A DNA stretch of 61,913 bases, counting the filler, from Hausera hauseri (taxonomy: Eukaryota): NCBI GenBank assembly GCA_046269625.1. It is 9 parts of 9 records of this genome, joined end to end, with 100 filler letters (N's around TTAATTAATTAA, not from the genome) between each part and the next. Parts side by side here need not be neighbours in the genome. Positions count along the whole stretch, not along the records: positions 1 to 17,282 come from JBJURY010222186.1; 8 more parts are not named here. One strand, written 5' to 3'. Positions 1-41,640 of this stretch are shown here, one piece after another. The notes under the pieces are model-generated. The model did no database searches. It saw only the letters and a program-made list of their open reading frames with translations, and was not told where the DNA came from. How positions within the stretch are numbered: position 1 is the stretch's first letter; every line of letters starts with the position of its first letter. Both the position numbers and the translations under genes were made by a program.

Positions 1-124
1 TGAATCTCTCCTTTTGCAAAAGCGTAAGATCTTCAAAATCTCACGAATTGTCTGGTTGGTCTGTTAATGTTGGTTAACGGGGATTGCTTGTGTTTAACTT
101 GAGCTTACAGAAAAATATCCAACA
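1..124 (+). repeat. 3' part (U5) of retroviral LTR; identical to contig end 17159-17282
   Basis: Ends ...ATCCAACA directly before the PBS; matches the last 124 nt of the LTR at 16698-17282. Confidence 0.95.
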
Positions 125-128
125 TTTC

Positions 129-147
129 TGGTGCCGCGACCCGGATT
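129..147 (+). promoter_or_regulatory. Primer binding site, tRNA-His type
   Basis: TGGTGCCGCGACCCGGATT, 4 nt after the LTR end; near-complement of the tRNA-His 3' end (TGGTGCCGTGACTCGGATT). Confidence 0.85.
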
Positions 148-330
148 GGACTTCATCCCACACTGACGGACGGACGGACGCGCCGCACCCAGTGCACGGG
201 CAGGCCCATTGGACCTGAAGGAAAGACTCGGAGGACTTCGTTTCTTCACGAGCCGGCGTTCTAGGTCCTCACTCCAACTGTCAGTGTCGGATTAGCTCCA
301 ATCCACACTTTGACAGACATCACAAGTCTG

Positions 331-336
331 GTGAGA
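331..336 (+). promoter_or_regulatory. Candidate major splice donor
   Basis: TG|GTGAGA; the equivalent position in unit B (~9948) is GTGAGT, and A/B leader similarity drops after it. Confidence 0.55.
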
Positions 337-951
337 TTATAATTACTTTCTTATGTTATGTATGAATGATCATTAAAGGGCAGAAAATTTTGATAAAAAC
401 ACTGTATAGAGGCAAATAAAACAAAGAAGAATATACAGGTTAAAGTCCTGTATTGTGTGGGTACCCAGTCCCGACACTAATTTAAATTAACAGGTTAAAG
501 TCCTGTTAAATTGTGTGGGTAATCAGTCCCGACACTGTGAAAAATAACAGGTTAGAGTCCTGTTTTATGTAACTGGTTAGAGTCCAGAAGTTATAGGTTT
601 AATATACAAACCTAGTCATCCTTATACTGTGTTGAAAATCTCGTGTTTGCCTGATAGTGAAGAGTGAATGTTTATGTATGATTGAGGGTGAAATAAATTA
701 TTGAGACAGATTGATGGTTCCTCCTGAAACCTAACGGTGTCAACATAAAGAGGGACTGTTTCTCTGACTACACCCTATTAAGGAAACAACTGGAACTTGT
801 CTGACCAACTTTAAGGAACTTCTCCTTGAACGGGTCACACAAACAGTTCCACATATATTAATAAAAATTGTATATTAAATTATCATAAAAAACGCAGAGT
901 ACTACCCATTACTAGAAGTCCATAATTAAAACCAAGTTTATATTGTTCACT

Positions 952-1219
952 CTGGATATACATATCCACCATAGTCTACCCCCATTTGACCCCTCCGATC
1001 CACATACTAGAGAATTATTATCTCTCATTACTCCTTATACAGTACTATTTAGTGTTACTAAATGAACGGCCTGATTTAAGACTAAGAATAAGAGTAAGGC
1101 CTTTAACTAATAGAGGCCCTTACAGAGGTTTAGGTGTAGTAAAAGTTGATTTAACTGACTCAAGACCCCGAGTTTTGCAACATTTTTCTTTTGTGTTCAG
1201 TCTATCAGGTTTAAACTAG
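952..1219 (+). pseudogene. Pre-gag accessory ORF, unit A copy, frameshifted by a 10-nt insertion (~1039-1048)
   Basis: Aligns at protein level with unit B 10507-10764; the length difference is exactly 10 nt. Confidence 0.75.
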
Positions 1220-1222
1220 AAA

Positions 1223-2689
1223 ATGGGAAAATCAGCAAGTAAGGTTGAAGGATTAGAAGGAGATGAAAAGTTTATGAATCAAAAACACCCTGGAAGTTGT
1301 ACTTTCAGGAATAAATGGTTAAAGGAAGGTATTAAACTTACACTAAAAGTAGAGACATGGCAAGGACAGGTCTCTAAGAAAGAAGCAGAAAAAGAGAAGG
1401 CAACAGGAAGTAAGAAAAAGAAGCTTGAAGAGGAAGTGCAGGCAGCGAGGCTGTGGTTAGACGAGTCTAAGAATAGAAGAGACCAAGTGAGAGCCTCTAA
1501 GGCTAGAAAGGATGAGGCGGCACTGATGGTCCGCCCTGAAGACAATGAAACACAGCTGAGGCACCGACAGACAGGTCTCCCTCAGAACAGCAAGACCCCT
1601 GTTACAGCTAGTGCCCCTAATGATACTGGACCCCCACCACCCCCCGGTAAAAAACATACAGATGATCCAACTCATGATTATAACACCCGCACCACTTCTA
1701 AAAAACTGACTGCCACCAGACAACTGGACATGACAGCCATGGTTGAACCACCCCCCTATGGACCAGAACCCTCTGAAAGACTATTTGGAAAAGGCGGATT
1801 GTACCCCCTGATTCAGGTGGCCAATCCCAACCCAAAAGAGGAGGACGGCCCTGGAGGGATGGTTCAATATGTGTTCAGACCTTGGACCTTAGCAGAAGCA
1901 CAGGCAGCAGTAGGAGGAGTTACCCCCCACAGAGAAGATGTAGAGAAGTGGGTAGAAGACATGACTCAGGTGCTCCACTCATACCGGTTAAATGGGTTCG
2001 AGGCAGGTCAAGCCTTGCAGTCCTCACTAGGGAAAGATTGGGCTAGGGTCAGAGGAGAATATACAGGAAGGGACAGAACGGGAACTCCCTTTGAGTATCG
2101 CACCACCCCAGATCCAAATGGAGCATTCTCACCTGATTATAGAGCTCAACTGATGGCCCTGTTCGATAGAGTAAGAGAAGCCTTCAAAAAGCGAGCTAAT
2201 TATGCTGAACTGCGCGCTGTGACACAGAAACCCAATGAACCAGTAGATGAATTCAGAGTCAGGTTTGAACAGGCTTTTAAATTACACAGCGGTATACAGT
2301 TTCAGGAAGACGATGACTCAGCATACCAACAGCAGCTCAAACAAGGCCTCTTAGATCAAGCAAAACCTAATCTAAGAACCTGGGTACAGACCCATTTTGT
2401 AAATTGGCCATCTGCAAGTGTTAGTCAGGCCATGGATTGGCTTAGACATGCAGAAAAGGTTAACCCTAAAGATGCAGGAACTTACTCTTTGAATCAATAC
2501 ACAGGAAGAGGACGAGGCAACAGGGGAGGTCCCAGAGGAAGGGGAAACATGGGATACAGGGGAGGCAGAGGAGGTAGAGGTTTTAAACCTAGAGGACAGC
2601 AGAACAATGAAGGCTGCTGGACGTGTGGCTCTCCAGACCACTGGTCCAGAGATTGCCCAAAAAACAACGGCCCCAAACAACAAGCATGA
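1223..2689 (+). CDS. gag: Gag polyprotein
   Basis: MGKSAS myristoylation signal, PPPY late domain, MHR-like QKPNEPVDEF, CCHC knuckle CWTCGSPDHWSRDC. Confidence 0.95.
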   Translation: MGKSASKVEGLEGDEKFMNQKHPGSCTFRNKWLKEGIKLTLKVETWQGQVSKKEAEKEKATGSKKKKLEEEVQAARLWLDESKNRRDQVRASKARKDEAALMVRPEDNETQLRHRQTGLPQNSKTPVTASAPNDTGPPPPPGKKHTDDPTHDYNTRTTSKKLTATRQLDMTAMVEPPPYGPEPSERLFGKGGLYPLIQVANPNPKEEDGPGGMVQYVFRPWTLAEAQAAVGGVTPHREDVEKWVEDMTQVLHSYRLNGFEAGQALQSSLGKDWARVRGEYTGRDRTGTPFEYRTTPDPNGAFSPDYRAQLMALFDRVREAFKKRANYAELRAVTQKPNEPVDEFRVRFEQAFKLHSGIQFQEDDDSAYQQQLKQGLLDQAKPNLRTWVQTHFVNWPSASVSQAMDWLRHAEKVNPKDAGTYSLNQYTGRGRGNRGGPRGRGNMGYRGGRGGRGFKPRGQQNNEGCWTCGSPDHWSRDCPKNNGPKQQA

Positions 2690-3625
2690 CTAGATCAGGA
2701 ACATGAAAACCCACCTACTAAACCAGATGTAGATGTTTATTCAGCATGGGCAGTTCTTAATGCTTTAAAGGAACAACCCTACATAGTTTTAAAGGTGGGT
2801 CAGACAAAGGTTGAATTCCTTTGTGACACAGGTGCATGCAGAACTGTGTTGAAAGACACAGTCCCAGAAATACAACTGTCTAAAAGCACCCTATGGGTCA
2901 GTTCAGCAAATGGACAAATGACTAAAGAATATTTGTCCAAACCCATATCAATTGTGGACCCAGAAACAAACATAACCAAATTTGCACCAATAATAGTCTC
3001 TCCTAAATGCCCCATAAATCTCCTAGGCAGAGACATGATGCAGAAATTAAAGCTTGCTATAGTGCCCACCCAACACGGTATGAGAGTCCACCGTGTAGAA
3101 TCAGTCTTTGTGCTAAATGATTCAGCCCCTACCATGTATGCTTCTCTAGATGTAGAAGCAAATAAGCAAACCAACCCTTTTGAGACGAGAGATCTGATAA
3201 ATGATGCAAAAAGCCAACTCTCCAACCCGCAGACAGAAATAGGTTACAACCATCTGCACGTGACCATGAAACTGTTGAATGACGCACAGGAAGCAAGCCT
3301 GTTTTCACAGTTGGCCCCAGTCACGATGGCAACAGATTATTTATACACAGACAGGTTCTCCTTTTCTGCTGCGAGTGTGCTGTTACCACAAATAATCAGT
3401 TCAGAATTTAACATGCAAAACTGCTCAGTTCCTCATCTCAGTCTGATGAAAGCTGACGATGCCAGCTGGAAAAACACAGGCCCCAGGTTAAAGACTGCAG
3501 CTACAGCCACAGACTGGGAACCAACACAAAATGAGTGGACATTCAGCCCCAGTTGTGGGCTGTGGCGCAAACCTCTGGTGCGAGTGCTTTATGCAGAGCC
3601 AAGGGTACACCCATTAAGTGACTGA
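2690..3625 (+). CDS. pro: Aspartic protease + 2H phosphoesterase-like domain (expressed by readthrough of the gag UGA)
   Basis: Open and in frame directly after the gag stop; FLCDTGA and NLLGRD protease motifs, then LHVTM and PHLSL (HxT/HxS) motifs. Confidence 0.9.
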   Translation, partial: LDQEHENPPTKPDVDVYSAWAVLNALKEQPYIVLKVGQTKVEFLCDTGACRTVLKDTVPEIQLSKSTLWVSSANGQMTKEYLSKPISIVDPETNITKFAPIIVSPKCPINLLGRDMMQKLKLAIVPTQHGMRVHRVESVFVLNDSAPTMYASLDVEANKQTNPFETRDLINDAKSQLSNPQTEIGYNHLHVTMKLLNDAQEASLFSQLAPVTMATDYLYTDRFSFSAASVLLPQIISSEFNMQNCSVPHLSLMKADDASWKNTGPRLKTAATATDWEPTQNEWTFSPSCGLWRKPLVRVLYAEPRVHPLSD

Positions 3626-6600
3626 CGGTGCGCAGCCCTACTATCTGATGAGGATGAGGAATTAATATCCAACTTACCTACATCCCTGTGGTCCCAAGGA
3701 CACTCAGATGTAGGGCTGTTGAACAGTATACCCCCCGTCAGGATCCAACCAAAAGGAACATTCAGACCAAGAATAAAACAATACCCATTAAAACCTGAGG
3801 CTGAAAATGGTGTTGCACCTGTCATACAAGATTTACTCAGAGCTGGAGTTATAAGACCATGTAACTCCTCTCCCTGCAACACACCCATTTTCCCAGTACA
3901 GAAAGCTGACAAACAATCATGGAGATTAGTGCAAGACTTAAGAGCAGTGAACCAAGCCATAATCTCCCGAGCCCCAAATGTGCCAGACCCACACACACTG
4001 TTGAACTCAGTACAAGCAGATTCACACTGGTTTACAGTTTTAGATCTGAGTAACGCTTTCTTTTCAGTTCCCATTCATCCAGACTCACAACACTGGTTTG
4101 CTTTCACTTTCAGAGGACAAAAATACACCTACACCAGATTGCCACAAGGCTTCACAGACAGCCCGACCATTTTTACAGAAGCAATAACTACATGTTTGCA
4201 AAATTTTACACCTAAACATAGCCAATTACTGGTCTACGTAGATGATCTTCTTCTCTGCTCAGACACAAAGGAACACTGCAGACAGGACTCTCTCTCTCTC
4301 TTAAAGTTTCTAGCAGAAACAGGAAACAAAGTAAGCAGGAAAAAGATGCAGTTTGTGCAGCCTGAGGTCATTTACTTAGGTCAAAGTATCTCAGCCTCGG
4401 GGAGGAAACTGCACACAGACAGACGAGAGAGCATTGCAAACGCTCCTAAACCTGAGACAAAGAAACAAATGATGCAATTTCTCGGTTTGTGCAATTATTG
4501 CAGAGCATGGGTGCCAGATTATGCAGGACACACACAGCCTTTGTTAGACATAATCTACTCTACACCCATGTCAATGAATCAAAAGATCATCTGGACTCCT
4601 GAAGCAGAAACAGCTTTCTGTAAAATAAAAGCCCTGCTGGTGCAAAGCACCTCACTGCTACTACCAGACTACTCAAAACCATTTGTGCAAATGGTAGATT
4701 GTAAAAACGGCTTTATGGTTTCAGTGCTAACACAGAAACATGGTGGGAAAAACAAGCCATTAGCATTCTACTCAAAACGCCTGGATCCAGTGGCAACGGC
4801 ACTGCCCCCTTGTGTCCAAGCAGTGTGCGCTGCAGCAATGGCAGTCCAGGCCTCGGCTGATGTGGTTCTGTTCCATGAAACAACACTGTTGGTTCCACAT
4901 GCTGTAGATGTTTTACTCTTACAAAGTAAATTGACAACCCTTTCTCCGGCCAGACAGATAACATACACTGCACTGTTGTTATCACAACCTCACATTACCA
5001 TCCAACGTTGCAATATTTTAAACCCTGCCACACTACTGCCGTGCCCAACTGATGGCAGCCCACACAATTGTGTGACAGAAGCAGACTCTTTGTCCCTGCC
5101 GAGACCTGATTTAAAAGATGTGCCGTTGTCATCAGGAAAAGTGTGGTTTGTTGATGGCTCATGTTCAAAAGCTCAGAATGGAAAAAACCTGTCAGGCTTT
5201 GCAGTAGTTGAACTGCCAAACACAGTAATCTATGCTGCTAAACTACCAGATCATTTCTCCGCCCAAGCAGCAGAAATCCAAGCTCTAACAAAAGCGTGTG
5301 AATTAGCTAAAGGGCAACAATTAACGGTGTATACTGACAGCCAGTATGCATTCTCAACCCTGTTCTATTTTGCAAAACAATGGGAGAGGCGTGGTATGAC
5401 CACATCCACAGGGAAACCTGTGACTCATGCGGCCCTATTAAAAGAGCTCTTAATGGCCATACATTTACCAGCTGCCCTAGCTGTGGTGAAGTGTGCAGCC
5501 CACCAAAAAGGTACAGATTTTGTAACCAGGGGCAACACCCTGGCTGACATAACTGCAAAGCAAGCAGCAGCAGGAGATTTCAACACGGACACACACCTCT
5601 CCTCCACCCAAGCCCCAGCCATTGATGATGACATTCTAAAAAATGCACAACTACTAGCGCCAAAACAGGAAATCCAATCATGGGTCAACAGAGGGGCGAC
5701 ACAGGCTGATGCCATATGGACACTAGATGGCAAACCCGTCCTTCCTAAGTCTCTTTTTAAAGCGGCTGCTGTGGCGACACATGGCCCTTGCCACGTGTCG
5801 ACAGGAGGGATGGTAGAAATAATAACCCAGTGGTTTACAACTATAGGGTTGGAAGGGTACCTTAAACAATTTTGTAAACAATGTGTGACGTGCATAAAAC
5901 ACAATCCACAGGGCAACATGAGACCAAAAAGAGGGGCCTTTCCAGCACCCTCATACCCTTTTCAAACCCTACACATGGACTTTATTGAACTAAATCAGAG
6001 TGGACCACACAGATACTGCTTGGTACTGATAGATGCATTTTCAAAATGGGTTGAAATAATACCCACAGCAAGACCAGATGCATTATCAGTAGCAAAAGCC
6101 ATTTGTAAAGACATTATCCCAGCTCACGGGATACCAGAAACCTTGTACTCAGACAATGGAACACACTTTGTAAATGAAATAGTACAAAATATGGCAGACC
6201 ATCTACAAATAAACTTGAAAAACCATTGTGCCTACCATCCACAAAGTGCTGGATTGGTAGAGAGAACAAATGGAACAATAAAAAGCCGTCTTAAAAAATG
6301 CATGGAAGAGACAGGGAGACCGTGGCCAGAATGTTTACCATTAGTAAAACTGTACATGAGGATCACACCATCTGCTGCAGGCCCAACACCTTTTGAAATA
6401 CTGTATGGAAGACCATACAGATTACCAGTGTTCGATTTAGACAGAGCACATGAAGAAAACACCCTGGCAGATTACATGATAAACACTTTTAAGCTAAAAG
6501 ATGTTCAGAATACAAATGTACTGCCCTCTGGTCCTTTGTCTCCACAGGAAACACCAGTAAAACCAGGAGACTGGGTGTTCATCAAAGTAATAAAAAAGAA

Positions 6601-6733
6601 ACACTGGAACAGCCCAAAGTGGGAGGGACCATATCAAGTGATCCTGACCACACCAACAGCAGTAAAAATCGCTGAAAGACCTTCATGGATACATCTCAGT
6701 CACTGTAAGTTGCAAAAAGTGCTCAGTCCATAG
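3626..6733 (+). CDS. pol: RT - RNase H - integrase (in frame after the second UGA)
   Basis: LPQG and YVDD (RT); WFVDGS and YTDSQY (RNase H); HHCC, D..D..E and GPY (IN); frame open from 3626. Confidence 0.95.
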   Translation, partial: RCAALLSDEDEELISNLPTSLWSQGHSDVGLLNSIPPVRIQPKGTFRPRIKQYPLKPEAENGVAPVIQDLLRAGVIRPCNSSPCNTPIFPVQKADKQSWRLVQDLRAVNQAIISRAPNVPDPHTLLNSVQADSHWFTVLDLSNAFFSVPIHPDSQHWFAFTFRGQKYTYTRLPQGFTDSPTIFTEAITTCLQNFTPKHSQLLVYVDDLLLCSDTKEHCRQDSLSLLKFLAETGNKVSRKKMQFVQPEVIYLGQSISASGRKLHTDRRESIANAPKPETKKQMMQFLGLCNYCRAWVPDYAGHTQPLLDIIYSTPMSMNQKIIWTPEAETAFCKIKALLVQSTSLLLPDYSKPFVQMVDCKNGFMVSVLTQKHGGKNKPLAFYSKRLDPVATALPPCVQAVCAAAMAVQASADVVLFHETTLLVPHAVDVLLLQSKLTTLSPARQITYTALLLSQPHITIQRCNILNPATLLPCPTDGSPHNCVTEADSLSLPRPDLKDVPLSSGKVWFVDGSCSKAQNGKNLSGFAVVELPNTVIYAAKLPDHFSAQAAEIQALTKACELAKGQQLTVYTDSQYAFSTLFYFAKQWERRGMTTSTGKPVTHAALLKELLMAIHLPAALAVVKCAAHQKGTDFVTRGNTLADITAKQAAAGDFNTDTHLSSTQAPAIDDDILKNAQLLAPKQEIQSWVNRGATQADAIWTLDGKPVLPKSLFKAAAVATHGPCHVSTGGMVEIITQWFTTIGLEGYLKQFCKQCVTCIKHNPQGNMRPKRGAFPAPSYPFQTLHMDFIELNQSGPHRYCLVLIDAFSKWVEIIPTARPDALSVAKAICKDIIPAHGIPETLYSDNGTHFVNEIVQNMADHLQINLKNHCAYHPQSAGLVERTNGTIKSRLKKCMEETGRPWPECLPLVKLYMRITPSAAGPTPFEILYGRPYRLPVFDLDRAHEENTLADYMINTFKLKDVQNTNVLPSGPLSPQETPVKPGDWVFIKVIKKKHWNSPKWEGPYQVILTTPTAVKIAERPSWIHLSHCKLQKVLSP
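6526..6548 (+). promoter_or_regulatory. Candidate env splice acceptor within IN
   Basis: Pyrimidine tract ...GTCCTTTGTCTCCACAG|G. Confidence 0.5.
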
Positions 6734-6910
6734 GAGAGGCTGTGGGGAAAGTCCTGGCTACAAAGGGGGGGTGAGCAATATAGAGGCACCTCGTCTCAAA
6801 CCAGGTGAACGTTCGATAGATCCCAGCCTCATTTTAGGCCTATGTGAGAGTGGTTTTGCAACTTAAGCAGTAATACCGAGCCTTTAAGGGGACGGCTTAT
6901 CTGTGTAGTG

Positions 6911-9124
6911 ATGGAGATTGCCATGGAAAGAATCATTGGACGGGCCCCTGTCCCACCACAGGACGAGGAGGACCCGGAACCAGAGGAAATGGTGCCAGAA
7001 ACCAGGCTCCAAAAATGGAGAAGAAGAACTGAACAATTCTTCTGGTTTGACGAGACCCCATGCTGGGTCTATTTGCTTTCATTTTTATTAAGTGCATGTT
7101 TGATGATTTTTCTAATGTTTAAGATTTTGTATCCTTTGATTGCAGGCCTTCCGATCCTCTCTCCTCCATGGACCACCCAGTCACATGACAGACCAAGGCG
7201 AACACTAGGGGTAGGAACACATAACTGGGCCATAGCAGGGAACAATCTGGTGAGACGCCACTTATGGAAAGCATCCTGTGTACGTCCTCAAACAAACATT
7301 ACAGTACAAGAAGGGACAACATCCACAGTTATGCTGGACCCGTGTCTTTATTTTCACTGTGATGACCCCAGGAAGTTAGGACATCCAGATATTTATGTAT
7401 GTGGAAAAAGGTTCTATGACAAACATGACTGCCCAAACTGTGATGCTTGGGACTACGCGTATTGGACCACATCACACAAAGATTGGGGGTATAAAATAGG
7501 TGAAGACAATAGCAACCTCAAAACCAGACTAACCATATGGAAAGTAAACTCTAGTTCACCTGCAGTAATGCTACAACTAAACAATGCTACTAAGAATGAC
7601 CAGGGTTTTTTCGTAGTCTGTGCCTATGTATCAGGAACCGACCCCTGCGCTCCTTTCTACTTGGAAGTTGTTAGCAAACCTGAAGAGGTAAAAAACCCCG
7701 TATATGTCCAACTAGGAGGTGGTGAGACTGAAACACATGTGCACCCGGAAGTAGACTCAGAACATCACTGGGCACACACCCCTATTTCTTTAAAAGGTAA
7801 CAAATGGTGGTCAGTACTGAGAAGCCTAACAGAGGCGGCAGGAGTTAATTCCTCTTGCTATGCCTGTACTCTATTTCCACATGACAATTTAGGAGCCATG
7901 CCAATAAGACCAGAACCCTTGCCTAAAAAACAGGTGGCCTGTACACTCCTAGCCTTGACCCCACCATTCCAATCCGCAGCAAATGGATGGAATGTGACCA
8001 GAAGTAACCTAACTGGGATATGTGCCAGTTTTGCAAACTTGACTGTAAGAACCAGTTCCAGTTTAAAGTTAAAAACCAAAGACATGCAGCTTTTTGCTCC
8101 CTTAGGATCTGTCCACCCCAAACACTTACAGATCACACACCCTGTTTGTTTTACCAGACCACTGACCAACAGAAGAGTTTTCATGGGACATGTTCAACAT
8201 TGTGAACAAATTTTTAATGCAACTTGTGGTGAGGCACCCTCAAACTTTTCAGATTGTTATGCAGGGACTCCTCAGGGCAAGGTTAATATCAGTACTCAGT
8301 TTAATCTTACACTCCCGGAAGCTGTAGCCATATGGCCCTCAGACTCTGGAGCTGGTAGCCTAAGGGGAAGTGTATGGTTGTGTGGGAACCACTATCATCA
8401 GGCTCTGCCTCCCATGTGGGCAGGGACCTGTGCTCTGGTGGAAATGAGACCCGCAGTGACATTAATGTCCTCTCTGGTGTACTCAACCCACCACTACCCC
8501 CACTACCGGATGCCTCCAAGCATGGACAGGAAAAAGAGGGATACTGTGGTCGTTTCGGGAGGAGCTAAATTCCTGTCAGGAATTTTGCCCTGGTGGGGAA
8601 CTGTAAACAACGCCCACCACATTGATAAATTGCACTTACAGTTAGAAAATTTGACTGCTTTAGTTGGTGATGGTTTCTCGGCTCTCACACCTTATCTGGC
8701 AGCCTCTAGGAACATGCTCACACAACACCAGATGGCTTTGGACATTTTGTTTGCCTCACAAGGAGGCTTATGTCACATCATAGGTGACTCATGCTGTACC
8801 TACTTACCCGACCCCACTGGAAATCTGACAGAGACTATTACACACTTAAACACCCTGCTTGCTACTATGAAGGAAGATGACGTACAGACGCCTGAGGGGT
8901 GGGACTGGTGGTCCTGGATGACGGGAGGTGGATGGAAAGCCTGGGCAGGCCGAATTGTGGTGCCTTTATTTTTCTTTCTACTATTAATTCTAATAATAGC
9001 TTGTTGTATTATTCCTGCTTTCAAGAAATGCATTGCTTCCATTTTTGTTCAGATGTTTTATCATCACATGCAACAGTATGCTCTTGTGGCTCAAGATGAG
9101 CCAGATGACAGCACTGCTGTTTAA
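6911..9124 (+). CDS. env: Envelope glycoprotein (gamma-type)
   Basis: N-terminal hydrophobic segment, CYAC (CXXC), RKKR furin site, fusion peptide, ISD-like QHQMALDILFASQGGLC, CX6CC, TM anchor; ATG at 6911. Confidence 0.95.
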   Translation: MEIAMERIIGRAPVPPQDEEDPEPEEMVPETRLQKWRRRTEQFFWFDETPCWVYLLSFLLSACLMIFLMFKILYPLIAGLPILSPPWTTQSHDRPRRTLGVGTHNWAIAGNNLVRRHLWKASCVRPQTNITVQEGTTSTVMLDPCLYFHCDDPRKLGHPDIYVCGKRFYDKHDCPNCDAWDYAYWTTSHKDWGYKIGEDNSNLKTRLTIWKVNSSSPAVMLQLNNATKNDQGFFVVCAYVSGTDPCAPFYLEVVSKPEEVKNPVYVQLGGGETETHVHPEVDSEHHWAHTPISLKGNKWWSVLRSLTEAAGVNSSCYACTLFPHDNLGAMPIRPEPLPKKQVACTLLALTPPFQSAANGWNVTRSNLTGICASFANLTVRTSSSLKLKTKDMQLFAPLGSVHPKHLQITHPVCFTRPLTNRRVFMGHVQHCEQIFNATCGEAPSNFSDCYAGTPQGKVNISTQFNLTLPEAVAIWPSDSGAGSLRGSVWLCGNHYHQALPPMWAGTCALVEMRPAVTLMSSLVYSTHHYPHYRMPPSMDRKKRDTVVVSGGAKFLSGILPWWGTVNNAHHIDKLHLQLENLTALVGDGFSALTPYLAASRNMLTQHQMALDILFASQGGLCHIIGDSCCTYLPDPTGNLTETITHLNTLLATMKEDDVQTPEGWDWWSWMTGGGWKAWAGRIVVPLFFFLLLILIIACCIIPAFKKCIASIFVQMFYHHMQQYALVAQDEPDDSTAV

Positions 9125-9143
9125 ACACCCTCTTTTACAGCTT

Positions 9144-9157
9144 AAACAGGAGGGATA
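9144..9157 (+). promoter_or_regulatory. Polypurine tract
   Basis: AAACAGGAGGGATA immediately before the LTR TG (again at 16684-16697). Confidence 0.85.
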
Positions 9158-9742
9158 TGTAAAGGATTTTCCTTTACATTATATTTTATTATTACTTGTT
9201 TATTCATTAAAGTATCTGTTTTTTAGTTAAGCTGTTTTACAGAGTGTGTGTGTGCTGTGAAAGGTCGTCTGCAGGTCGTCTGCAGTATCAAGCCAGCCAG
9301 TACTTCCTGTTAATCTTTTTTGAGATGCAGCTGTGAGCGGTTGCCGAACCTCGTACGAGATCGAGACATCAGACCACACTCTGCTCCAAAACATGTTTGT
9401 CATGCCCATATTTAGTCATGGAACGCGATGTATCTAAACGTTTCTTTGCATTCTATTAATATATATTTTGCTCATATATTATAACCACCACCCAGCAACA
9501 GTAAAAGTAACTTCTTTGCTGATTGGTGGTTTTTCACTTCCTGTTGTGAATAAAAACGATCACGCCGAGCCCCGAGGTCAGAGCTTCGATACATCAGCTG
9601 CCGTTAAGTTGAGTATTCTGAATCTCTCCTTTTGCAAAAGCGTAAGATCTTCAAAATCTCACGAATTGTCTGGTTGGTCTGTTAATGTTGGTTAATGGGG
9701 ATCGCTTGTGTTTAACTTGAGCTTACAGGAAAATATCCAACA
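9158..9742 (+). repeat. LTR (585 bp) shared between units A and B
   Basis: TGT...ACA termini, PPT before and PBS after; differs from the terminal LTR at 3 positions in U5. Confidence 0.95.
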
Positions 9743-9746
9743 TTTC

Positions 9747-9764
9747 TGGTGCCGTGACCCGGAT
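9747..9764 (+). promoter_or_regulatory. Primer binding site, tRNA-His type
   Basis: TGGTGCCGTGACCCGGAT after the LTR. Confidence 0.88.
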
Positions 9765-10506
9765 GGAATTCATCCTACACTGACGGGCAGACAGGACGCG
9801 CCGAACCCAGTGCACGGGCGGGTCCCCCGAACCTGAAAGAAAGCCTCGGAGGACTTCGTTTCTTCACGAGCCGGCGTTCTAGGTCCAAACTCCAACTGTC
9901 AGTGTCGGATGAACTTCCATCCACACTGTGACAGACGACAGACATTAGTGAGTATAAAATTGTGAACTTGTATGAATGATTTGAAAGAAAAGTGAAACAA
10001 GGGACAAGTATACACGGGGAAACAGAGAGTACAGGATAGGATCCTGGTACTGTGTGGGTTAAAGACCCGACACTTTAGAGTGGATCGAATTTTTAGTACG
10101 GAAAACTAGTTCGAGTCCAGGTCTAAAAATAAGAAAGTTTTTGAGTGGTTAATCCACAAGATAAAATTTTAAAAGTTAAACCCCGGTCCCGTTGTTAACA
10201 GAATTGTGCGTGTATGATTTGTACAAATGAGATGTGTATGAATGAGGGGAACTAAGAATTGGACTGGTGGTTCGTCCTGAAACCTGACGGTGTCAACATA
10301 CAGACGGACTACTTCTCCATTTCGGACCCTATTAAGGAGAATTTTAGGAGACTGAGACAGAATTTAATTCAAAATATTTGGATGAACCTGTCTATGTCTC
10401 ACATATATTAATAACATCACATATAAATTAATAAAACAACCAATAAATACGCAGAGTACTATTAAAGAATTACAATTTTAAATGATCACAGATTCCTAAA
10501 TTTATA

Positions 10507-10764
10507 CTGGAGTTACACGTCCATAGGCAACTTCCTCGTTTTGACCCACAAAACCCTCATACACGCGAATTACTTGATTTACTCCAACCCTATTTAGAGT
10601 TACTAAGAGAACGCCCTGAGTGTAAACTCTGTATTAAAATAAGACCTCTCACGCCTAGAGGTTTATACAGAGGATTAGGAGTTGTAAAAGTGGATTTAAT
10701 AGATCCAGTACAAGGAATTACGCAGCATTATTCTTTTGTATTTAGTTTAACAGGATTAAACTAG
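10507..10764 (+). CDS. Pre-gag accessory protein, 85 aa, putative CUG start (absent from ORF track)
   Basis: ATA-CTG-G start; LELHVHRQLPRFDPQNPHTRELLDLLQPYLELLRERPECKLCIKIRPLTPRGLYRGLGVVKVDLIDPVQGITQHYSFVFSLTGLN*; conserved with unit A through synonymous and conservative changes. Confidence 0.7.
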   Translation: MELHVHRQLPRFDPQNPHTRELLDLLQPYLELLRERPECKLCIKIRPLTPRGLYRGLGVVKVDLIDPVQGITQHYSFVFSLTGLN

Positions 10765-10767
10765 AAA

Positions 10768-12240
10768 ATGGGAAAATCGGCAAGTAAGGTTGAAGGATTA
10801 GAAGGAGATGAGAAGTTTATGAATCAAAAACACCCTGGAAGCTGTACTTTCAGAAACAAATGGTTGAAAGAAGGAATTAAACTTACCTTGAAAGTAGAGA
10901 CATGGCAGGGTCAGGTCTCTAAGAAAGAAGCAGAAAAAGAGAAGGCGACAGGAAGTAAGAAAAAGAAACTTGAGGAGGAAGTGCAGACAGCGAGGCTGTG
11001 GTTAGACGAGTCTAAAATTAGAAGAGACCAAGTGAGAGCCTCTAAGGCTAGAAAGGACGAGGCGGCCCTACTGGTTCGCCCTGAAGATAATGAAACACAA
11101 CTGAGACGCCGCCAGCCAGGCCCCCCACATGGCAGTAAGACCCCTGTTACAGCCAGTGCCCCTGAAGCCACTGACCCTCCTCCACCCCCTGATAAACAAC
11201 CAGATGACCCGTCCCATGATTACAACACCCGTACCACTTCCAAAAAATTGACTGCCACCCGACAACTGAACATGACAGCTATGATCGAACCACCCCCTTA
11301 CGGACCAGAGCCCTCTGAAACACCATTTGGGAAGGGTGGATTGTACCCCCTGATCCAGGTGGCCAATCCCAACCCAAAAGAGGAGGATGGGCCTGAGGGG
11401 ATGGTCCAATACGTATTTAGACCATGGACACTGGCAGAAGCACAAGCAGCAGTGGGAGGAGTGACTCCCCACAGGGAAGATACAGAGAAGTGGGTAGAAG
11501 ACATGACCCAGGTACTTCACTCATACCGGTTGAACGGGTTTGAGGCAGGTCAGGCTCTACAGTCCTCATTAGGGAAAGATTGGGCTAGGGTCAGAGGCGA
11601 TTATACAGGCAGGGACAGAGTAGGAACCCCTTTTGAGTACCGCACCACACCAGATCCAAATGGAGCATTCCCTCCTGACTATAAAGCTCAGTTGATGGCC
11701 CTGTTTGATAGGGTGAGAGAGGCTTTCAAAAAACGTGCAAATTATGCCGAACTACGGGCAGTAACACAAAGACCCAGTGAGCCAGTAGATGAGTATAGGG
11801 TTAGGTTTGAGCAGGCCTTTAAATTACACAGCGGCATACAATTTCAGGAAGGAGATGACTCAGCATACCAACAGCAGCTCAAACAAGGCCTCCTAGACCA
11901 AGCAAAACCTAATCTGAGAACTTGGGTTCAAACCCATTTTGTGAACTGGCCCTCTGCAAGTGTTAGTCAGGCCATGGACTGGCTTAGACATGCTGAAAAA
12001 GTTAACCCTAAGGATGCAGGTACTTACTCTCTAAACCAACCTCAATACACAGGGAGAGGAAGAGGTAACAGAAGAGGATTTAGAGGCAGAGGAGGCAGAG
12101 GATTTAAACCCACCAGGCCCCAAACAAACAGATTTAGAGGACCTCAAGGCAACAGCGACGGCTGCTGGACTTGTGGTTCTCCTGACCATTGGGCCAAGAA
12201 CTGTCCAAAAAATACAAGCAAAACTAATCCACAAGCATGA
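10768..12240 (+). CDS. gag: Gag polyprotein (diverged variant)
   Basis: Intact paralog of 1223-2689 with many synonymous differences. Confidence 0.95.
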   Translation: MGKSASKVEGLEGDEKFMNQKHPGSCTFRNKWLKEGIKLTLKVETWQGQVSKKEAEKEKATGSKKKKLEEEVQTARLWLDESKIRRDQVRASKARKDEAALLVRPEDNETQLRRRQPGPPHGSKTPVTASAPEATDPPPPPDKQPDDPSHDYNTRTTSKKLTATRQLNMTAMIEPPPYGPEPSETPFGKGGLYPLIQVANPNPKEEDGPEGMVQYVFRPWTLAEAQAAVGGVTPHREDTEKWVEDMTQVLHSYRLNGFEAGQALQSSLGKDWARVRGDYTGRDRVGTPFEYRTTPDPNGAFPPDYKAQLMALFDRVREAFKKRANYAELRAVTQRPSEPVDEYRVRFEQAFKLHSGIQFQEGDDSAYQQQLKQGLLDQAKPNLRTWVQTHFVNWPSASVSQAMDWLRHAEKVNPKDAGTYSLNQPQYTGRGRGNRRGFRGRGGRGFKPTRPQTNRFRGPQGNSDGCWTCGSPDHWAKNCPKNTSKTNPQA

Positions 12241-13170
12241 CTAGATCATGAAACCCCGCCCACCAAACCGGATGTGGATGTTTATTCAGCATGGACAGTC
12301 CTTAATGCTTTAAAAGAACAACCCTACATAGTTTTAAAGGTGGGCCAAACAAAAGTTGAGTTTCTTTGTGATACAGGTGCATGCAGAACTGTGTTAAAAG
12401 ACACAGTTCCAGAAATACAGTTGTCCAACAGCACCCTATGGGTCAGTTCTGCAAATGGACAAATGACCAAGGAATATCTGTCTAAACCTATATCAATTGT
12501 GGACCCGGAAACGAACATAACTAAAACCGCACCAATAATAGTCTCCCCCAAGTGTCCAATAAATCTACTGGGGCGAGACATGATGCAAAAACTAAAACTG
12601 GCCATAGTGCCCACCAAAAATGGAATGAGGGCCCACCGTGTAGAATCAGTTTTTGTACTTCACGATTCATCACCCACCATGTATGCATCTTTAGATGTAG
12701 AAGCAAATAAACAAGCTAATCCTTTTGAGACAAGAGATCTGATCAATGACGGAAAAAGACAACTCTCACACCCACAGACAGAAATAGGTTACAATCATCT
12801 GCACGTGACCATGAAACTGTTAAACGATGCACAGGAAGCAAGCCTGTTTTCACAGCTGGCCCCAGTCACGATGGCAACAGACTATTTATACACAGACAGG
12901 TTCTCCTTTTCGGCTGCGAGTGTGCTGTTACCACAAATAATCAGTTCAGAATTTAACATGCAGAACTGTTCAGTTCCCCACCTCAGTCTTATGAAACCTG
13001 AGGACTCCAGTTGGAAAAACACAGGCCCGAGATTAAAAACTGCAGCCGCTGCCACAGACTGGGAACAATCACAAAGTGAGTGGACATTCAGCCCCAGTTG
13101 TGGACTATGGCGGAAACCTCTAGTAAGAGTGCTTTATGCAGAACCAAAAGTACACCCATTAAGTGACTGA
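12241..13170 (+). CDS. pro: Protease + 2H phosphoesterase-like domain (readthrough)
   Basis: Same motifs as unit A; bounded by TGA-CTAG and TGA-CGG. Confidence 0.9.
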   Translation, partial: LDHETPPTKPDVDVYSAWTVLNALKEQPYIVLKVGQTKVEFLCDTGACRTVLKDTVPEIQLSNSTLWVSSANGQMTKEYLSKPISIVDPETNITKTAPIIVSPKCPINLLGRDMMQKLKLAIVPTKNGMRAHRVESVFVLHDSSPTMYASLDVEANKQANPFETRDLINDGKRQLSHPQTEIGYNHLHVTMKLLNDAQEASLFSQLAPVTMATDYLYTDRFSFSAASVLLPQIISSEFNMQNCSVPHLSLMKPEDSSWKNTGPRLKTAAAATDWEQSQSEWTFSPSCGLWRKPLVRVLYAEPKVHPLSD

Positions 13171-14273
13171 CGGTGCGCGGCCCTACTATCTGATGAGGAT
13201 GAGAAATTAATATCCAATCATGGGTCAACAGAGGGGCGACACAGGCTGATGCCATATGGACACTGGATGGCAAACCCGTCCTTCCTAAGTCTCTTTTTAA
13301 AGCGGCTGCTGTGGCGACACATGGCCCTTGCCACGTGTCGACAGGAGGGATGGTAGAAATAATAACCCAGTGGTTTACAACTATAGGGTTGGAAGGGTAC
13401 CTTAAACAATTTTGTAAACAATGTGTGACGTGCATAAAACACAATCCACAGGGCAACATGAGACCAAAAAGAGGGGCCTTTCCAGCACCCTCATACCCTT
13501 TTCAAACCCTACACATGGACTTTATTGAACTAAATCAGAGTGGACCACACAGATACTGCTTGGTACTGATAGATGCATTTTCAAAATGGGTTGAAATAAT
13601 ACCCACAGCAAGACCAGATGCATTATCAGTAGCAAAAGCCATTTGTAAAGACATTATCCCAGCTCACGGGATACCAGAAACCTTGTACTCAGACAATGGA
13701 ACACACTTTGTAAATGAAATAGTACAAAATATGGCAGACCATCTACAAATAAACTTGAAAAACCATTGTGCCTACCATCCACAAAGTGCTGGATTGGTAG
13801 AGAGAACAAATGGAACAATAAAAAGCCGTCTTAAAAAATGCATGGAAGAGACAGGGAGACCGTGGCCAGAATGTTTACCATTAGTAAAACTGTACATGAG
13901 GATCACACCATCTGCTGCAGGCCCAACACCTTTTGAAATACTGTATGGAAGACCATACAGATTACCAGTGTTCGATTTAGACAGAGCACATGAAGAAAAC
14001 ACCCTGGCAGATTACATGATAAACACTTTTAAGCTAAAAGATGTTCAGAATACAAATGTACTGCCCTCTGGTCCTTTGTCTCCACAGGAAACACCAGTAA
14101 AACCAGGAGACTGGGTGTTCATCAAAGTAATAAAAAAGAAACACTGGAACAGCCCAAAGTGGGAGGGACCATATCAAGTGATCCTGACCACACCAACAGC
14201 AGTAAAAATCGCTGAAAGACCTTCATGGATACATCTCAGTCACTGTAAGTTGCAAAAAGTGCTCAGTCCATAG
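13171..14273 (+). pseudogene. pol: pol remnant: RT/RNase H deleted, integrase out of frame
   Basis: Junction at ATCCAA (13212-13217) joins unit-A equivalents 3667-3672 and 5672-5677. Confidence 0.9.
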
Positions 14274-14450
14274 GAGAGGCTGTGGGGAAAGTCCTGGCTA
14301 CAAAGGGGGGGTGAGCAATATAGAGGCACCTCGTCTCAAACCAGGTGAACGTTCGATAGATCCCAGCCTCATTTTAGGCCTATGTGAGAGTGGTTTTGCA
14401 ACTTAAGCAGTAATACCGAGCCTTTAAGGGGACGGCTTATCTGTGTAGTG

Positions 14451-16664
14451 ATGGAGATTGCCATGGAAAGAATCATTGGACGGGCCCCTGTCCCACCACA
14501 GGACGAGGAGGACCCGGAACCAGAGGAAATGGTGCCAGAAACCAGGCTCCAAAAATGGAGAAGAAGAACTGAACAATTCTTCTGGTTTGACGAGACCCCA
14601 TGCTGGGTCTATTTGCTTTCATTTTTATTAAGTGCATGTTTGATGATTTTTCTAATGTTTAAGATTTTGTATCCTTTGATTGCAGGCCTTCCGATCCTCT
14701 CTCCTCCATGGACCACCCAGTCACATGACAGACCAAGGCGAACACTAGGGGTAGGAACACATAACTGGGCCATAGCAGGGAACAATCTGGTGAGACGCCA
14801 CTTATGGAAAGCATCCTGTGTACGTCCTCAAACAAACATTACAGTACAAGAAGGGACAACATCCACAGTTATGCTGGACCCGTGTCTTTATTTTCACTGT
14901 GATGACCCCAGGAAGTTAGGACATCCAGATATTTATGTATGTGGAAAAAGGTTCTATGACAAACATGACTGCCCAAACTGTGATGCTTGGGACTACGCGT
15001 ATTGGACCACATCACACAAAGATTGGGGGTATAAAATAGGTGAAGACAATAGCAACCTCAAAACCAGACTAACCATATGGAAAGTAAACTCTAGTTCACC
15101 TGCAGTAATGCTACAACTAAACAATGCTACTAAGAATGACCAGGGTTTTTTCGTAGTCTGTGCCTATGTATCAGGAACCGACCCCTGCGCTCCTTTCTAC
15201 TTGGAAGTTGTTAGCAAACCTGAAGAGGTAAAAAACCCCGTATATGTCCAACTAGGAGGTGGTGAGACTGAAACACATGTGCACCCGGAAGTAGACTCAG
15301 AACATCACTGGGCACACACCCCTATTTCTTTAAAAGGTAACAAATGGTGGTCAGTACTGAGAAGCCTAACAGAGGCGGCAGGAGTTAATTCCTCTTGCTA
15401 TGCCTGTACTCTATTTCCACATGACAATTTAGGAGCCATGCCAATAAGACCAGAACCCTTGCCTAAAAAACAGGTGGCCTGTACACTCCTAGCCTTGACC
15501 CCACCATTCCAATCCGCAGCAAATGGATGGAATGTGACCAGAAGTAACCTAACTGGGATATGTGCCAGTTTTGCAAACTTGACTGTAAGAACCAGTTCCA
15601 GTTTAAAGTTAAAAACCAAAGACATGCAGCTTTTTGCTCCCTTAGGATCTGTCCACCCCAAACACTTACAGATCACACACCCTGTTTGTTTTACCAGACC
15701 ACTGACCAACAGAAGAGTTTTCATGGGACATGTTCAACATTGTGAACAAATTTTTAATGCAACTTGTGGTGAGGCACCCTCAAACTTTTCAGATTGTTAT
15801 GCAGGGACTCCTCAGGGCAAGGTTAATATCAGTACTCAGTTTAATCTTACACTCCCGGAAGCTGTAGCCATATGGCCCTCAGACTCTGGAGCTGGTAGCC
15901 TAAGGGGAAGTGTATGGTTGTGTGGGAACCACTATCATCAGGCTCTGCCTCCCATGTGGGCAGGGACCTGTGCTCTGGTGGAAATGAGACCCGCAGTGAC
16001 ATTAATGTCCTCTCTGGTGTACTCAACCCACCACTACCCCCACTACCGGATGCCTCCAAGCATGGACAGGAAAAAGAGGGATACTGTGGTCGTTTCGGGA
16101 GGAGCTAAATTCCTGTCAGGAATTTTGCCCTGGTGGGGAACTGTAAACAACGCCCACCACATTGATAAATTGCACTTACAGTTAGAAAATTTGACTGCTT
16201 TAGTTGGTGATGGTTTCTCGGCTCTCACACCTTATCTGGCAGCCTCTAGGAACATGCTCACACAACACCAGATGGCTTTGGACATTTTGTTTGCCTCACA
16301 AGGAGGCTTATGTCACATCATAGGTGACTCATGCTGTACCTACTTACCCGACCCCACTGGAAATCTGACAGAGACTATTACACACTTAAACACCCTGCTT
16401 GCTACTATGAAGGAAGATGACGTACAGACGCCTGAGGGGTGGGACTGGTGGTCCTGGATGACGGGAGGTGGATGGAAAGCCTGGGCAGGCCGAATTGTGG
16501 TGCCTTTATTTTTCTTTCTACTATTAATTCTAATAATAGCTTGTTGTATTATTCCTGCTTTCAAGAAATGCATTGCTTCCATTTTTGTTCAGATGTTTTA
16601 TCATCACATGCAACAGTATGCTCTTGTGGCTCAAGATGAGCCAGATGACAGCACTGCTGTTTAA
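14451..16664 (+). CDS. env: Envelope glycoprotein, same protein as unit A
   Basis: Identical translation in the ORF track. Confidence 0.95.
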   Translation: MEIAMERIIGRAPVPPQDEEDPEPEEMVPETRLQKWRRRTEQFFWFDETPCWVYLLSFLLSACLMIFLMFKILYPLIAGLPILSPPWTTQSHDRPRRTLGVGTHNWAIAGNNLVRRHLWKASCVRPQTNITVQEGTTSTVMLDPCLYFHCDDPRKLGHPDIYVCGKRFYDKHDCPNCDAWDYAYWTTSHKDWGYKIGEDNSNLKTRLTIWKVNSSSPAVMLQLNNATKNDQGFFVVCAYVSGTDPCAPFYLEVVSKPEEVKNPVYVQLGGGETETHVHPEVDSEHHWAHTPISLKGNKWWSVLRSLTEAAGVNSSCYACTLFPHDNLGAMPIRPEPLPKKQVACTLLALTPPFQSAANGWNVTRSNLTGICASFANLTVRTSSSLKLKTKDMQLFAPLGSVHPKHLQITHPVCFTRPLTNRRVFMGHVQHCEQIFNATCGEAPSNFSDCYAGTPQGKVNISTQFNLTLPEAVAIWPSDSGAGSLRGSVWLCGNHYHQALPPMWAGTCALVEMRPAVTLMSSLVYSTHHYPHYRMPPSMDRKKRDTVVVSGGAKFLSGILPWWGTVNNAHHIDKLHLQLENLTALVGDGFSALTPYLAASRNMLTQHQMALDILFASQGGLCHIIGDSCCTYLPDPTGNLTETITHLNTLLATMKEDDVQTPEGWDWWSWMTGGGWKAWAGRIVVPLFFFLLLILIIACCIIPAFKKCIASIFVQMFYHHMQQYALVAQDEPDDSTAV

Positions 16665-16697
16665 ACACCCTCTTTTACAGCTTAAACAGGAGGGATA

Positions 16698-17282
16698 TGT
16701 AAAGGATTTTCCTTTACATTATATTTTATTATTACTTGTTTATTCATTAAAGTATCTGTTTTTTAGTTAAGCTGTTTTACAGAGTGTGTGTGTGCTGTGA
16801 AAGGTCGTCTGCAGGTCGTCTGCAGTATCAAGCCAGCCAGTACTTCCTGTTAATCTTTTTTGAGATGCAGCTGTGAGCGGTTGCCGAACCTCGTACGAGA
16901 TCGAGACATCAGACCACACTCTGCTCCAAAACATGTTTGTCATGCCCATATTTAGTCATGGAACGCGATGTATCTAAACGTTTCTTTGCATTCTATTAAT
17001 ATATATTTTGCTCATATATTATAACCACCACCCAGCAACAGTAAAAGTAACTTCTTTGCTGATTGGTGGTTTTTCACTTCCTGTTGTGAATAAAAACGAT
17101 CACGCCGAGCCCCGAGGTCAGAGCTTCGATACATCAGCTGCCGTTAAGTTGAGTATTCTGAATCTCTCCTTTTGCAAAAGCGTAAGATCTTCAAAATCTC
17201 ACGAATTGTCTGGTTGGTCTGTTAATGTTGGTTAACGGGGATTGCTTGTGTTTAACTTGAGCTTACAGAAAAATATCCAACA
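16698..17282 (+). repeat. LTR (585 bp)
   Basis: Copy of 9158-9742, preceded by the PPT. Confidence 0.95.
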
Positions 17283-17382
17283 NNNNNNNNNNNNNNNNNN
17301 NNNNNNNNNNNNNNNNNNNNNNNNNNTTAATTAATTAANNNNNNNNNNNNNNNNNNNNNNNNNNNNNNNNNNNNNNNNNNNN
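17283..17382. other. Artificial contig spacer (also 23780-23879, 29544-29643, 40235-40334, 44631-44730, 49507-49606, 53747-53846, 57841-57940)
   Basis: N44-TTAATTAATTAA-N44, giving stops in all six frames. Confidence 0.99.
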
Positions 17383-29543: not shown

Positions 29544-29643
29544 NNNNNNNNNNNNNNNNNNNNNNNNNNNNNNNNNNNNNNNNNNNNTTAATTAATTAAN
29601 NNNNNNNNNNNNNNNNNNNNNNNNNNNNNNNNNNNNNNNNNNN

Positions 29644-41585: not shown

Positions 41586-41640
41586 GAAAGGCTGACGCTA
41601 GTTGCCTAGATATAGGATACTAGTTCCCAAGATTAACACC

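What the first reader, a model, noticed from the sequence alone, without database searches (positions are those of the whole stretch)
3623..3719. Long-range stem 7 nt downstream of the second UGA
Seen: CAGCCCTAC(TA)TCTGA (3633-3648) is complementary to TCAGA(T)GTAGGGCTG (3704-3718). Known: this geometry (short spacer after the stop, stem closing a large loop) matches 3' readthrough-stimulating structures of alphaviruses. Unit B's A>G change in the 5' arm would still allow a G-U pair, although its 3' arm is lost in the deletion. A weaker pairing exists after the first UGA (ACCCACCT 2709-2716 with AGGTGGGT 2793-2800).
Basis: partly seen in the sequence, partly recalled or inferred. Interest (0 to 1): 0.7.

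Follow-up and report, generated by a model that had tools for sequence, protein, structure and literature searches.

The report
Fish retrovirus with two leaky stops
A retrovirus sitting in a fish genome has two stop signals inside one long gene and probably reads past both to make its enzymes, a layout shared by many relatives; the RNA stem behind the second stop is real and looks like a known read-through helper, but distant relatives do without it.

Summary
The stem is real: 3632-3648 pairs with 3704-3719 (16 pairs, one bulged U), 6-7 nt after UGA 3623-3625, and beats every control (z -3.4 to -4.2; 2 of 1000 synonymous recodings). It lies in a fish epsilon-like endogenous retrovirus whose gag, protease-2H(CNPase-like) and pol share one frame split by two UGAs: UGA-CUAG and UGA-CGG. 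Both stops are a lineage trait, not decay: four relatives at 56-57% Pol identity carry both in frame, 69 of 78 homologous protease-2H proteins end there, and 25 split Pols sit on one side of a strongly supported branch with no fused form. The stem itself is not lineage-wide: it is kept (one G-U change, no two-sided change) in ~94%-identical relatives but absent from the four distant ones, which also lack CGG. Best reading: two successive readthroughs give Gag, Gag-Pro-2H and Gag-Pro-2H-Pol, and this sub-lineage uses a VEEV-like UGA-CGG plus stem at the second stop. Readthrough and the stem's role are inferred, not measured. I found no account of a double-readthrough retrovirus in the papers I could search, but could not read Basta 2009.

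The parts
1..124 (+). 3' end of the 5' LTR of provirus A
   Evidence: 124/124 identical to the end of the third LTR, 121/124 to the middle one
129..146 (+). primer-binding site (tRNA-His type, assignment recalled, not from a call)
1223..2686 (+). gag, one CCHC zinc knuckle
2687..2693 (+). stop 1, A-UGA-CUAG; same heptamer in unit B and L001-L004
2709..2800 (+). weaker extended stem-loop after stop 1 (19-nt spacer); kept in unit B by a shifted 5' arm and a G-U change
2690..3622 (+). protease followed by a 2H phosphoesterase domain (HVT ... HLS), 311 codons
   Evidence: Pfam RVP; model of residues 136-311 matches CNPase, E 3e-5, TM 0.5-0.6
3623..3628 (+). stop 2, UGA-CGG, in frame with gag, pro and pol
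   Evidence: unchanged in four other organisms; UGA at the same place in L001-L004
3632..3648 (+). 5' arm of the stem (U3642 bulged)
3649..3703 (+). 55-nt loop with two inner hairpins
3704..3719 (+). 3' arm of the stem (codons of the conserved RT motif S-D-V-G-L)
3626..6733 (+). pol: RT, RNase H, integrase; first in-frame AUG only at codon 241, after YVDD
6848..9124 (+). env frame (TLV_coat)
9158..9742 (+). middle LTR shared by units A and B
   Evidence: 582/585 identical to 16698-17282
10768..13170 (+). unit B gag (stop 12238-12240, UGA-CUAG) and pro-2H (stop 13168-13170, UGA-CGG); 85% and 88% identical to A, changes mostly synonymous
13177..13217 (+). unit B 5' arm (A>G at 13179) and deletion joint at a shared ATCCAA; 3' arm, RT and RNase H missing

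Best explanation
The provirus expresses its enzymes by two successive stop-codon readthroughs on the genomic RNA. Most ribosomes stop at UGA-CUAG and make Gag; a fraction read on and stop at UGA-CGG, making Gag-Pro-2H; a fraction of those read on again and make Gag-Pro-2H-Pol, from which the protease frees RT at the hydrophobic pair a few codons after the stop. In this sub-lineage the 16-pair stem, sitting at the ribosome's mRNA entry when the second UGA is in the A site, raises the second readthrough, as in VEEV. Shown here: one frame, two UGAs, their conservation, the stem's stability. Inferred: readthrough itself, its levels, the stem's role, the cleavage site. My odds: about 0.78 for double readthrough, about 0.7 that the stem helps if so.
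For: All three genes in one frame. Both stops have type II contexts although only 4 of 142 UGA triplets in the provirus are followed by CUA or CGG. Both stops kept in unit B under purifying selection (gag 132 synonymous against 42 non-synonymous codon changes, pro 81 against 21) and stop 2 in four of four other organisms laid. L001-L004 (56-57% Pol identity; three lineages) all read gag-UGA-CUAG-pro-UGA-pol in one frame; L003 is open over the whole Pol; L004 keeps both stops without the 2H domain. 69 of 78 protease-2H homologues that reach the domain's end stop within 15 residues of it; 69 of 154 end within 18 profile positions against 50 spread over the previous 155. Of 32 Pol homologues at 48% identity or more, 1 carries an upstream pro/2H part, against 47 of 61 below 48%; 25 of 27 split rows and none of 49 fused rows lie on one side of a branch with SH-aLRT 100. 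No in-frame AUG before the RT active site in A, none before codon 30 in L001 or 101 in L004; no conserved YAG acceptor with a pyrimidine tract. Stem statistics (1 of 221 positions as good). UGA-CGG sites of VEEV and CTFV need such a stem (PMC13517186, passage); VEEV's has the same 5' bulge (PMC3159437). The stem occurs in the one lineage that has UGA-CGG.
Against: No two-sided change in any relative; 1 of 33 arm positions varies, but so do only 4 of 141 in the RT sequence downstream, and 1 of 10 arm codons changed has P 0.14. The stem is absent in L001-L004, with no long-range substitute within 400 nt (12-35% of null positions as good) and no synonymous-site suppression after stop 2 between L001 and L002. 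Their second stops have the contexts GAC, GAG and CAA, of which UGA-G is normally a firm terminator (established knowledge), so how they are bypassed is unexplained. Amino acids alone cap the same register at 4-8 of 10 pairs in 12 of 12 split Pols tested. Several relatives have an AUG 2-5 codons after the stop (L002/L003, P0157, P0168). The 3' arm lies in a motif fixed at protein level. No expression data.
Confidence: 0.56

Rival explanations
1. Double readthrough happens, but the stem is incidental or serves something else (genome folding, packaging); the true stimulator of stop 2 is another signal, local or very long-range, shared by the whole clade.
For: Stem missing in four distant relatives that keep the stop; no covariation; an even stronger duplex lies at ~3500 with no stop before it.
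Against: It is the most stable window of 109, starts at the textbook spacer and follows a rare UGA-CGG; no shared alternative signal was found near stop 2.
Confidence: 0.24
2. Pol is made separately, from a spliced pol message (as foamy viruses do; recalled) or by reinitiation just after stop 2, so stop 2 is a true terminator and the stem is irrelevant to decoding.
For: AUG 2-5 codons after the stop in several relatives; firm-looking UGA-G contexts in L001-L003; the annotated Poecilia and Oryzias proteins start there.
Against: Unit A has no in-frame AUG until codon 241, L004 until 101, L001 until 30; 13 of 26 fused relatives also carry Met at this place (expected 23%), which points to an old protease site; the only CAG acceptor after the stop in A (3633-3635) is lost in B and all four laid relatives; strict frame-keeping in every DNA example is not needed under this model.
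Confidence: 0.14
3. The UGAs are decoded as selenocysteine, the stem being a Sec-redefinition element as in SEPN1.
For: SEPN1 has a 16-pair stem 6 nt after its UGA (PMC3159437, passage).
Against: No Rfam match, SECIS families included, in 1-17300 at E up to 1; the stops lie in linkers, not at a catalytic Cys; SEPN1's loop is 5 nt, not 55.
Confidence: 0.03
4. Stop 2 is a nonsense mutation in dead copies and the stem a coincidence.
For: L001, L002 and L004 carry further stops elsewhere.
Against: Same position in lineages at about 30% protease identity, in 69 protein clusters and on one branch of the tree; purifying selection on both sides; near-identical LTRs.
Confidence: 0.01

Closest known systems
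Alphavirus-type (Beier-Grimm type II) readthrough element: VEEV nsP3/nsP4, coltivirus VP9, furovirus CP (PMC3159437)
   Same: UGA-CGG, 7-nt spacer (furovirus CP: 7 nt, 96-nt span; here 7 nt, 94-nt span), long stem with a 1-nt bulge in the 5' arm, large loop
   Different: In a retrovirus, at a pro/pol boundary; no covariation or synonymous-site peaks could be shown; absent in distant relatives
Epsilon and epsilon-like fish retroviruses (WDSV, SSSV, ZFERV, SnRV)
   Same: One frame for gag-pro-pol, a stop after the zinc knuckle, UGA in SSSV and ZFERV (PMC13517186 section 4.1.2); 2H/CNPase domain known from fish retroviruses (PMC9503650, PMC4977317, passages)
   Different: Those are described with one stop, at gag-pro; here a second conserved in-frame UGA separates pro-2H from RT, and stop 1 is a fixed UGA-CUAG
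Beta- and deltaretroviruses (MMTV, HTLV-1) with two -1 frameshifts
   Same: Three-tier output Gag, Gag-Pro, Gag-Pro-Pol from two recoding sites (HTLV-1: PMC7075266, abstract start in listing)
   Different: In-frame UGA readthrough at both sites instead of frameshifts; unrelated lineage
Gammaretroviral gag-pro readthrough (MoMLV)
   Same: Structure a few nucleotides after a stop stimulates retroviral readthrough
   Different: UAG-G and a compact pseudoknot there; UGA-C and an extended stem here
Mammalian UGA-CUAG readthrough motif (OPRL1, MDH1)
   Same: Stop 1 matches it in A, B and L001-L004
   Different: Viral, and followed by a second stop

Membership tests
Type II (alphavirus-like) readthrough element | UGA followed by CGG or CUA | tested here: met
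   UGA-CGG in A, B and four laid relatives; not in L001-L004
Type II (alphavirus-like) readthrough element | Long in-frame ORF behind the stop with no start of its own | tested here: met
   1035 codons, first AUG at codon 241
Type II (alphavirus-like) readthrough element | Stem of 10 or more pairs 7-12 nt after the stop, closing a large loop | tested here: met
   16 pairs, 6-7 nt spacer, 55-nt loop
Type II (alphavirus-like) readthrough element | Twin peaks of synonymous-site conservation at the arms | tested here: inconclusive
   Close relatives too alike here (P 0.14); no suppression after stop 2 in L001 against L002, which lack the stem
Type II (alphavirus-like) readthrough element | Compensatory changes; stem conserved with the stop | tested here: not met
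   One one-sided G-U change only; 4-8 of 16 pairs in L001-L004. No DNA between about 60% and 90% identity was available
Type II (alphavirus-like) readthrough element | Measured stimulation of readthrough | not testable with these tools
   Needs reporters or ribosome profiling
Epsilon-like (class I) fish endogenous retrovirus | LTR-PBS-gag-pro-RT-RNaseH-IN-env(TLV_coat)-LTR, MLV-type integrase end, teleost relatives | tested here: met
Epsilon-like (class I) fish endogenous retrovirus | gag and pro in one frame, split by a stop after the zinc knuckle | tested here: met
Epsilon-like (class I) fish endogenous retrovirus | pro and pol continuous (single readthrough) | tested here: not met
   Second in-frame UGA; L013 shows the single-stop form
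Genus Epsilonretrovirus proper (WDSV) | Placement with WDSV, accessory ORFs | not tested
   No reference virus was in the tree
Gammaretroviral readthrough pseudoknot | UAG-G stop and H-type pseudoknot | tested here: not met
   UGA-C; no Rfam match; pseudoknots were not folded separately
Selenocysteine recoding | SECIS element in the RNA | tested here: not met
   0 Rfam matches in 1-17300 at E up to 1; divergent SECIS could be missed
2H phosphoesterase (CNPase-like) | Two Hx(T/S) motifs and 2H fold | tested here: met
   H190-V-T192 and H249-L-S251 nearly invariant; Foldseek top hits CNPase; activity not tested

The most novel reading that the evidence does not exclude
A widespread clade of teleost retroviruses uses two successive UGA readthroughs, the readthrough counterpart of the double frameshift of beta- and deltaretroviruses, to set Gag, protease-2H and Pol at three levels. 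The second stop was gained once and then kept while its helper signal turned over: an alphavirus-like UGA-CGG plus stem arose convergently in this sub-lineage, and the other sub-lineages pass UGA-G or UGA-CAA stops with no local structure, by a signal not yet described.
Probability: 0.6. Interest if true: 0.8.

Novelty: new variant of a known kind. Interest (0 to 1): 0.64.

Why it matters
Retroviruses are described as making Pol by one readthrough, one or two frameshifts, or a spliced message. Two readthroughs in series would be a further strategy. A 2026 review says readthrough in epsilonretroviruses is not experimentally verified and its cis signals are unclear (PMC13517186, section 4.1.2); this gives concrete, short, testable signals. 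It also suggests selection to package more protease and 2H phosphoesterase than RT, and it warns annotators: these stops make intact elements look like pseudogenes, and gene callers start Pol at a false methionine. The stem alone would be a modest new example; the two-stop layout is the larger result.

Tried and rejected
No whole genome is held for this window, so other copies in the host could not be collected. Locus scans that found nothing: viral contigs, metagenome contigs with the protease alignment, genome contigs (one search gave three unrelated integrases), phages by tblastn. L005-L012 were too distant or did not cover the site and were not used; L009 was read but lacks the region. The search for longer, fused protease forms found none at E 1e-8, a weak blank that overturned for distant relatives. 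Sequencing runs: no RNA holder listed; 4 of 22 runs were laid, on 3480-3900 only. Rfam: nothing. Foldseek of the whole pro-2H model returned only proteases; the 2H part was folded separately. The careful tree did not finish; the quick tree is reported, midpoint-rooted, with no one-clade test. Earlier findings of the scan: none. Same-register stem in distant relatives, a long-range substitute within 400 nt, a conserved splice acceptor and a conserved AUG were each looked for and not found. Basta et al. 2009 (PMC2748043) is not held.

Full report
Setting. Bases 1-17282 hold two endogenous retrovirus units in tandem that share a middle LTR. Unit A has gag (zinc knuckle), protease, RT, RNase H, integrase and env by Pfam. 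The named Pol relatives at 50-68% identity are from teleost fishes such as Syngnathus, Oryzias, Oreochromis, Poecilia, Gymnodraco and Takifugu, so the host is inferred to be a teleost. gag (1223-2686), pro (2690-3622) and pol (3626-6730) are in one frame, split by UGA 2687-2689 (then CUAG) and UGA 3623-3625 (then CGG). The second half of pro is a 2H phosphoesterase: two Hx(T/S) motifs nearly invariant in 11 aligned rows, and a model (pLDDT 81) whose best solved matches are CNPase. Such domains are known from fish retroviruses (PMC4977317 and PMC9503650, passages).

The observation. The pairing is there and is a little longer than stated: 15 Watson-Crick pairs with one bulged U in the 5' arm, plus a terminal G-U, with probabilities 0.85-1.0 in 275- and 400-nt contexts. 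It beats dinucleotide shuffles (z -3.2 to -4.0), synonymous recoding (2 of 1000), the other 108 windows of gag-pro-pol, and all but 7 of 8900 arm positions. One stronger local duplex lies at about 3500. The pairing after stop 1 is ordinary in A (1039 of 8900 positions as good; 29 of 1000 recodings), but B keeps it with a shifted 5' arm and a G-U change (z -2.9 and 0 of 200 recodings in a 108-nt window, not significant in a 150-nt one).

Is the second stop real? Yes. B differs from A by 15% in gag and 12% in pro, mostly at synonymous sites, and keeps both stops and contexts. Four of 22 listed runs, from four other organisms, were laid on 3480-3900; all four keep UGA-CGG. Of 154 protease-2H homologues held (10, the rest; nine were also in the seed alignment), 78 reach the end of the domain, and 69 of these end within 15 residues while 9 go on, 7 of them into RT. 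Some ends will be contig ends or decay, but 69 of 154 fall within 18 profile positions against 50 over the preceding 155. From the other side, of 120 listed Pol homologues 93 match from the first 60 residues: 1 of 32 at 48% identity or more carries an upstream pro/2H part, against 47 of 61 below that. In a quick tree of 88 RT rows (hits covering less than 230 residues or starting after residue 30 were left out), 25 of 27 split rows, one unclear row and none of 49 fused rows lie on one side of a branch with SH-aLRT 100; the root is midpoint only and no one-clade test was run. Proteins show only that the ORF ends; DNA shows how. Of 12 loci from the metagenome scan, four are close enough (56-57% identity), and all four read gag-UGA-CUAG-pro-UGA-pol in one frame; L003 is open over all of Pol, L004 has both stops but no 2H domain, and the more distant L013 has a single UAG with pro-2H-RT fused.

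Is the stem conserved? Only among close relatives, and uninformatively. In the four laid organisms and B the only arm change is A3634>G, which leaves a G-U pair; no two-sided change was seen. 1 of 33 arm positions varies against 17 of 108 upstream, but also only 3 of 55 in the loop and 4 of 141 downstream, so the arms do not stand out (differences near contig ends are not listed by the tool). In L001-L004 the stem is absent: 4, 8, 8 and 7 of 16 pairs in register, z between -0.6 and +0.6, no better duplex within 400 nt than 12-35% of control positions, and no synonymous-site suppression after stop 2 between L001 and L002. Their second stops are followed by GAC, GAG, GAG and CAA. In 12 of 12 other split Pols the amino acids alone allow at most 4-8 of 10 pairs in A's register. 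I had no DNA between about 60% and 90% identity, which is where covariation would show.

How it most likely works. Pol has no in-frame AUG before codon 241 in A, beyond the YVDD active site, none before 30 in L001 and 101 in L004; the only CAG acceptor after the stop in A is lost in five relatives. That leaves readthrough as the simplest route (inference). Only 4 of 142 UGA triplets in A are followed by CUA or CGG, and both in-frame stops are among them. UGA-CUAG has basal readthrough activity by itself, whereas UGA-CGG in VEEV and Colorado tick fever virus falls below 1% without its stem (PMC13517186, passage). That fits the pattern here: a fixed UGA-CUAG at stop 1 with weak, variable structure, and a strong stem in the one lineage with UGA-CGG at stop 2. 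The geometry matches VEEV (11-12 pairs, 1-nt bulge in the middle of the 5' arm, 8-9 nt spacer) and the furovirus CP site (7-nt spacer, 96-nt span) (PMC3159437, passages). The products would be Gag, Gag-Pro-2H and Gag-Pro-2H-Pol in falling amounts. Against this, several relatives have an AUG 2-5 codons after stop 2, which keeps separate initiation alive for them; but 13 of 26 fused relatives have Met at the same place (23% expected), which reads as an old protease site. How the UGA-G relatives pass their second stop is unexplained.

What is known. A 2026 review describes retroviral readthrough only at gag-pro, lists UGA stops for SSSV, ZFERV and a toad element, and says that readthrough in epsilonretroviruses is unverified and its signals unclear (PMC13517186: section 4.1.2 read whole, other passages). 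PMC3835772 found no pseudoknot after the WDSV and snakehead stops (passage). PMC12789967 gives readthrough at the gag end only (passages). PMC8672886, PMC2684134 and bioRxiv 2024.07.05.601823 did not mention it in the passages returned. Ten library searches gave no account of a retrovirus with two readthroughs. I could not read Basta et al. 2009, which described these CNPase-bearing fish elements (known only through its citation), nor Repbase entries or any supplements, and the second stop may be noted there.

Verdict. The stem is real and works like a type II readthrough stem by geometry and context, but it fails the conservation test beyond its sub-lineage, so membership is not shown. The larger result is the conserved two-UGA layout of a whole clade of fish retroviruses. 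New variant of a known kind; interest 0.64.

Noticed in passing
window 3681-3894: About 210 nt of RT differ from four other organisms at only 0-3 listed places, while 3515-3622 differs at 12-14 and divergence resumes after 3894 (3 of 30): a recombination patch or an extended constraint behind the stem.
   Followed up: partly
window 3500-3570: The strongest local duplex in provirus A (-32 kcal/mol) lies 55-120 nt upstream of stop 2; its core is kept in unit B.
   Followed up: no
window 3622-3628 and 3735-3741: CUGACGG, which includes stop 2, is complementary to CCGUCAG just beyond the stem, so the folded RNA may bury the stop.
   Followed up: no
window 9743-17282: Unit B is a chimera: leader 75%, gag 85% and pro 88% identical to A, then 4065 of 4069 identical after a 2005-nt out-of-frame deletion at a shared ATCCAA. 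Template switching, DNA-level duplication or an assembly artefact.
   Followed up: partly
window 1-124, 9158-9742, 16698-17282: First and third LTR ends are identical, while the middle LTR differs from both at 3 places.
   Followed up: no
L001 and L002, codons 20-34 after stop 1: No synonymous change in 14 codons (P 0.002 before correction for many windows), at the 3' side of a predicted stem after stop 1: a candidate helper for the first readthrough.
   Followed up: partly
L004 832-1332: Both stops are kept although the 2H domain is missing, so stop 2 does not depend on that domain.
   Followed up: partly
L001-L003, pro frame: The 2H motifs are altered in L002/L003 (QVT and NIL where L001 has HVT and HIS), suggesting loss of the phosphoesterase activity in some copies.
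   Followed up: no
proteins P0023 and P0028: Gag and pro-2H are fused and the protein ends after the 2H domain: possibly elements with the second stop only.
   Followed up: no
window 22458-23717 and 52491-53744; 29592-31992: Two inverted copies (81-83%) of an RT-bearing element, and a separate RT frame.
   Followed up: no
window 41602-42855, 45224-46690, 47855-48865, 57893-58933, 59859-60719: Long open frames with no Pfam match at E 0.01.
   Followed up: no
L013: A fish-retrovirus contig is included in a bacterial genome bin labelled Brevinema, evidently host contamination.
   Followed up: no
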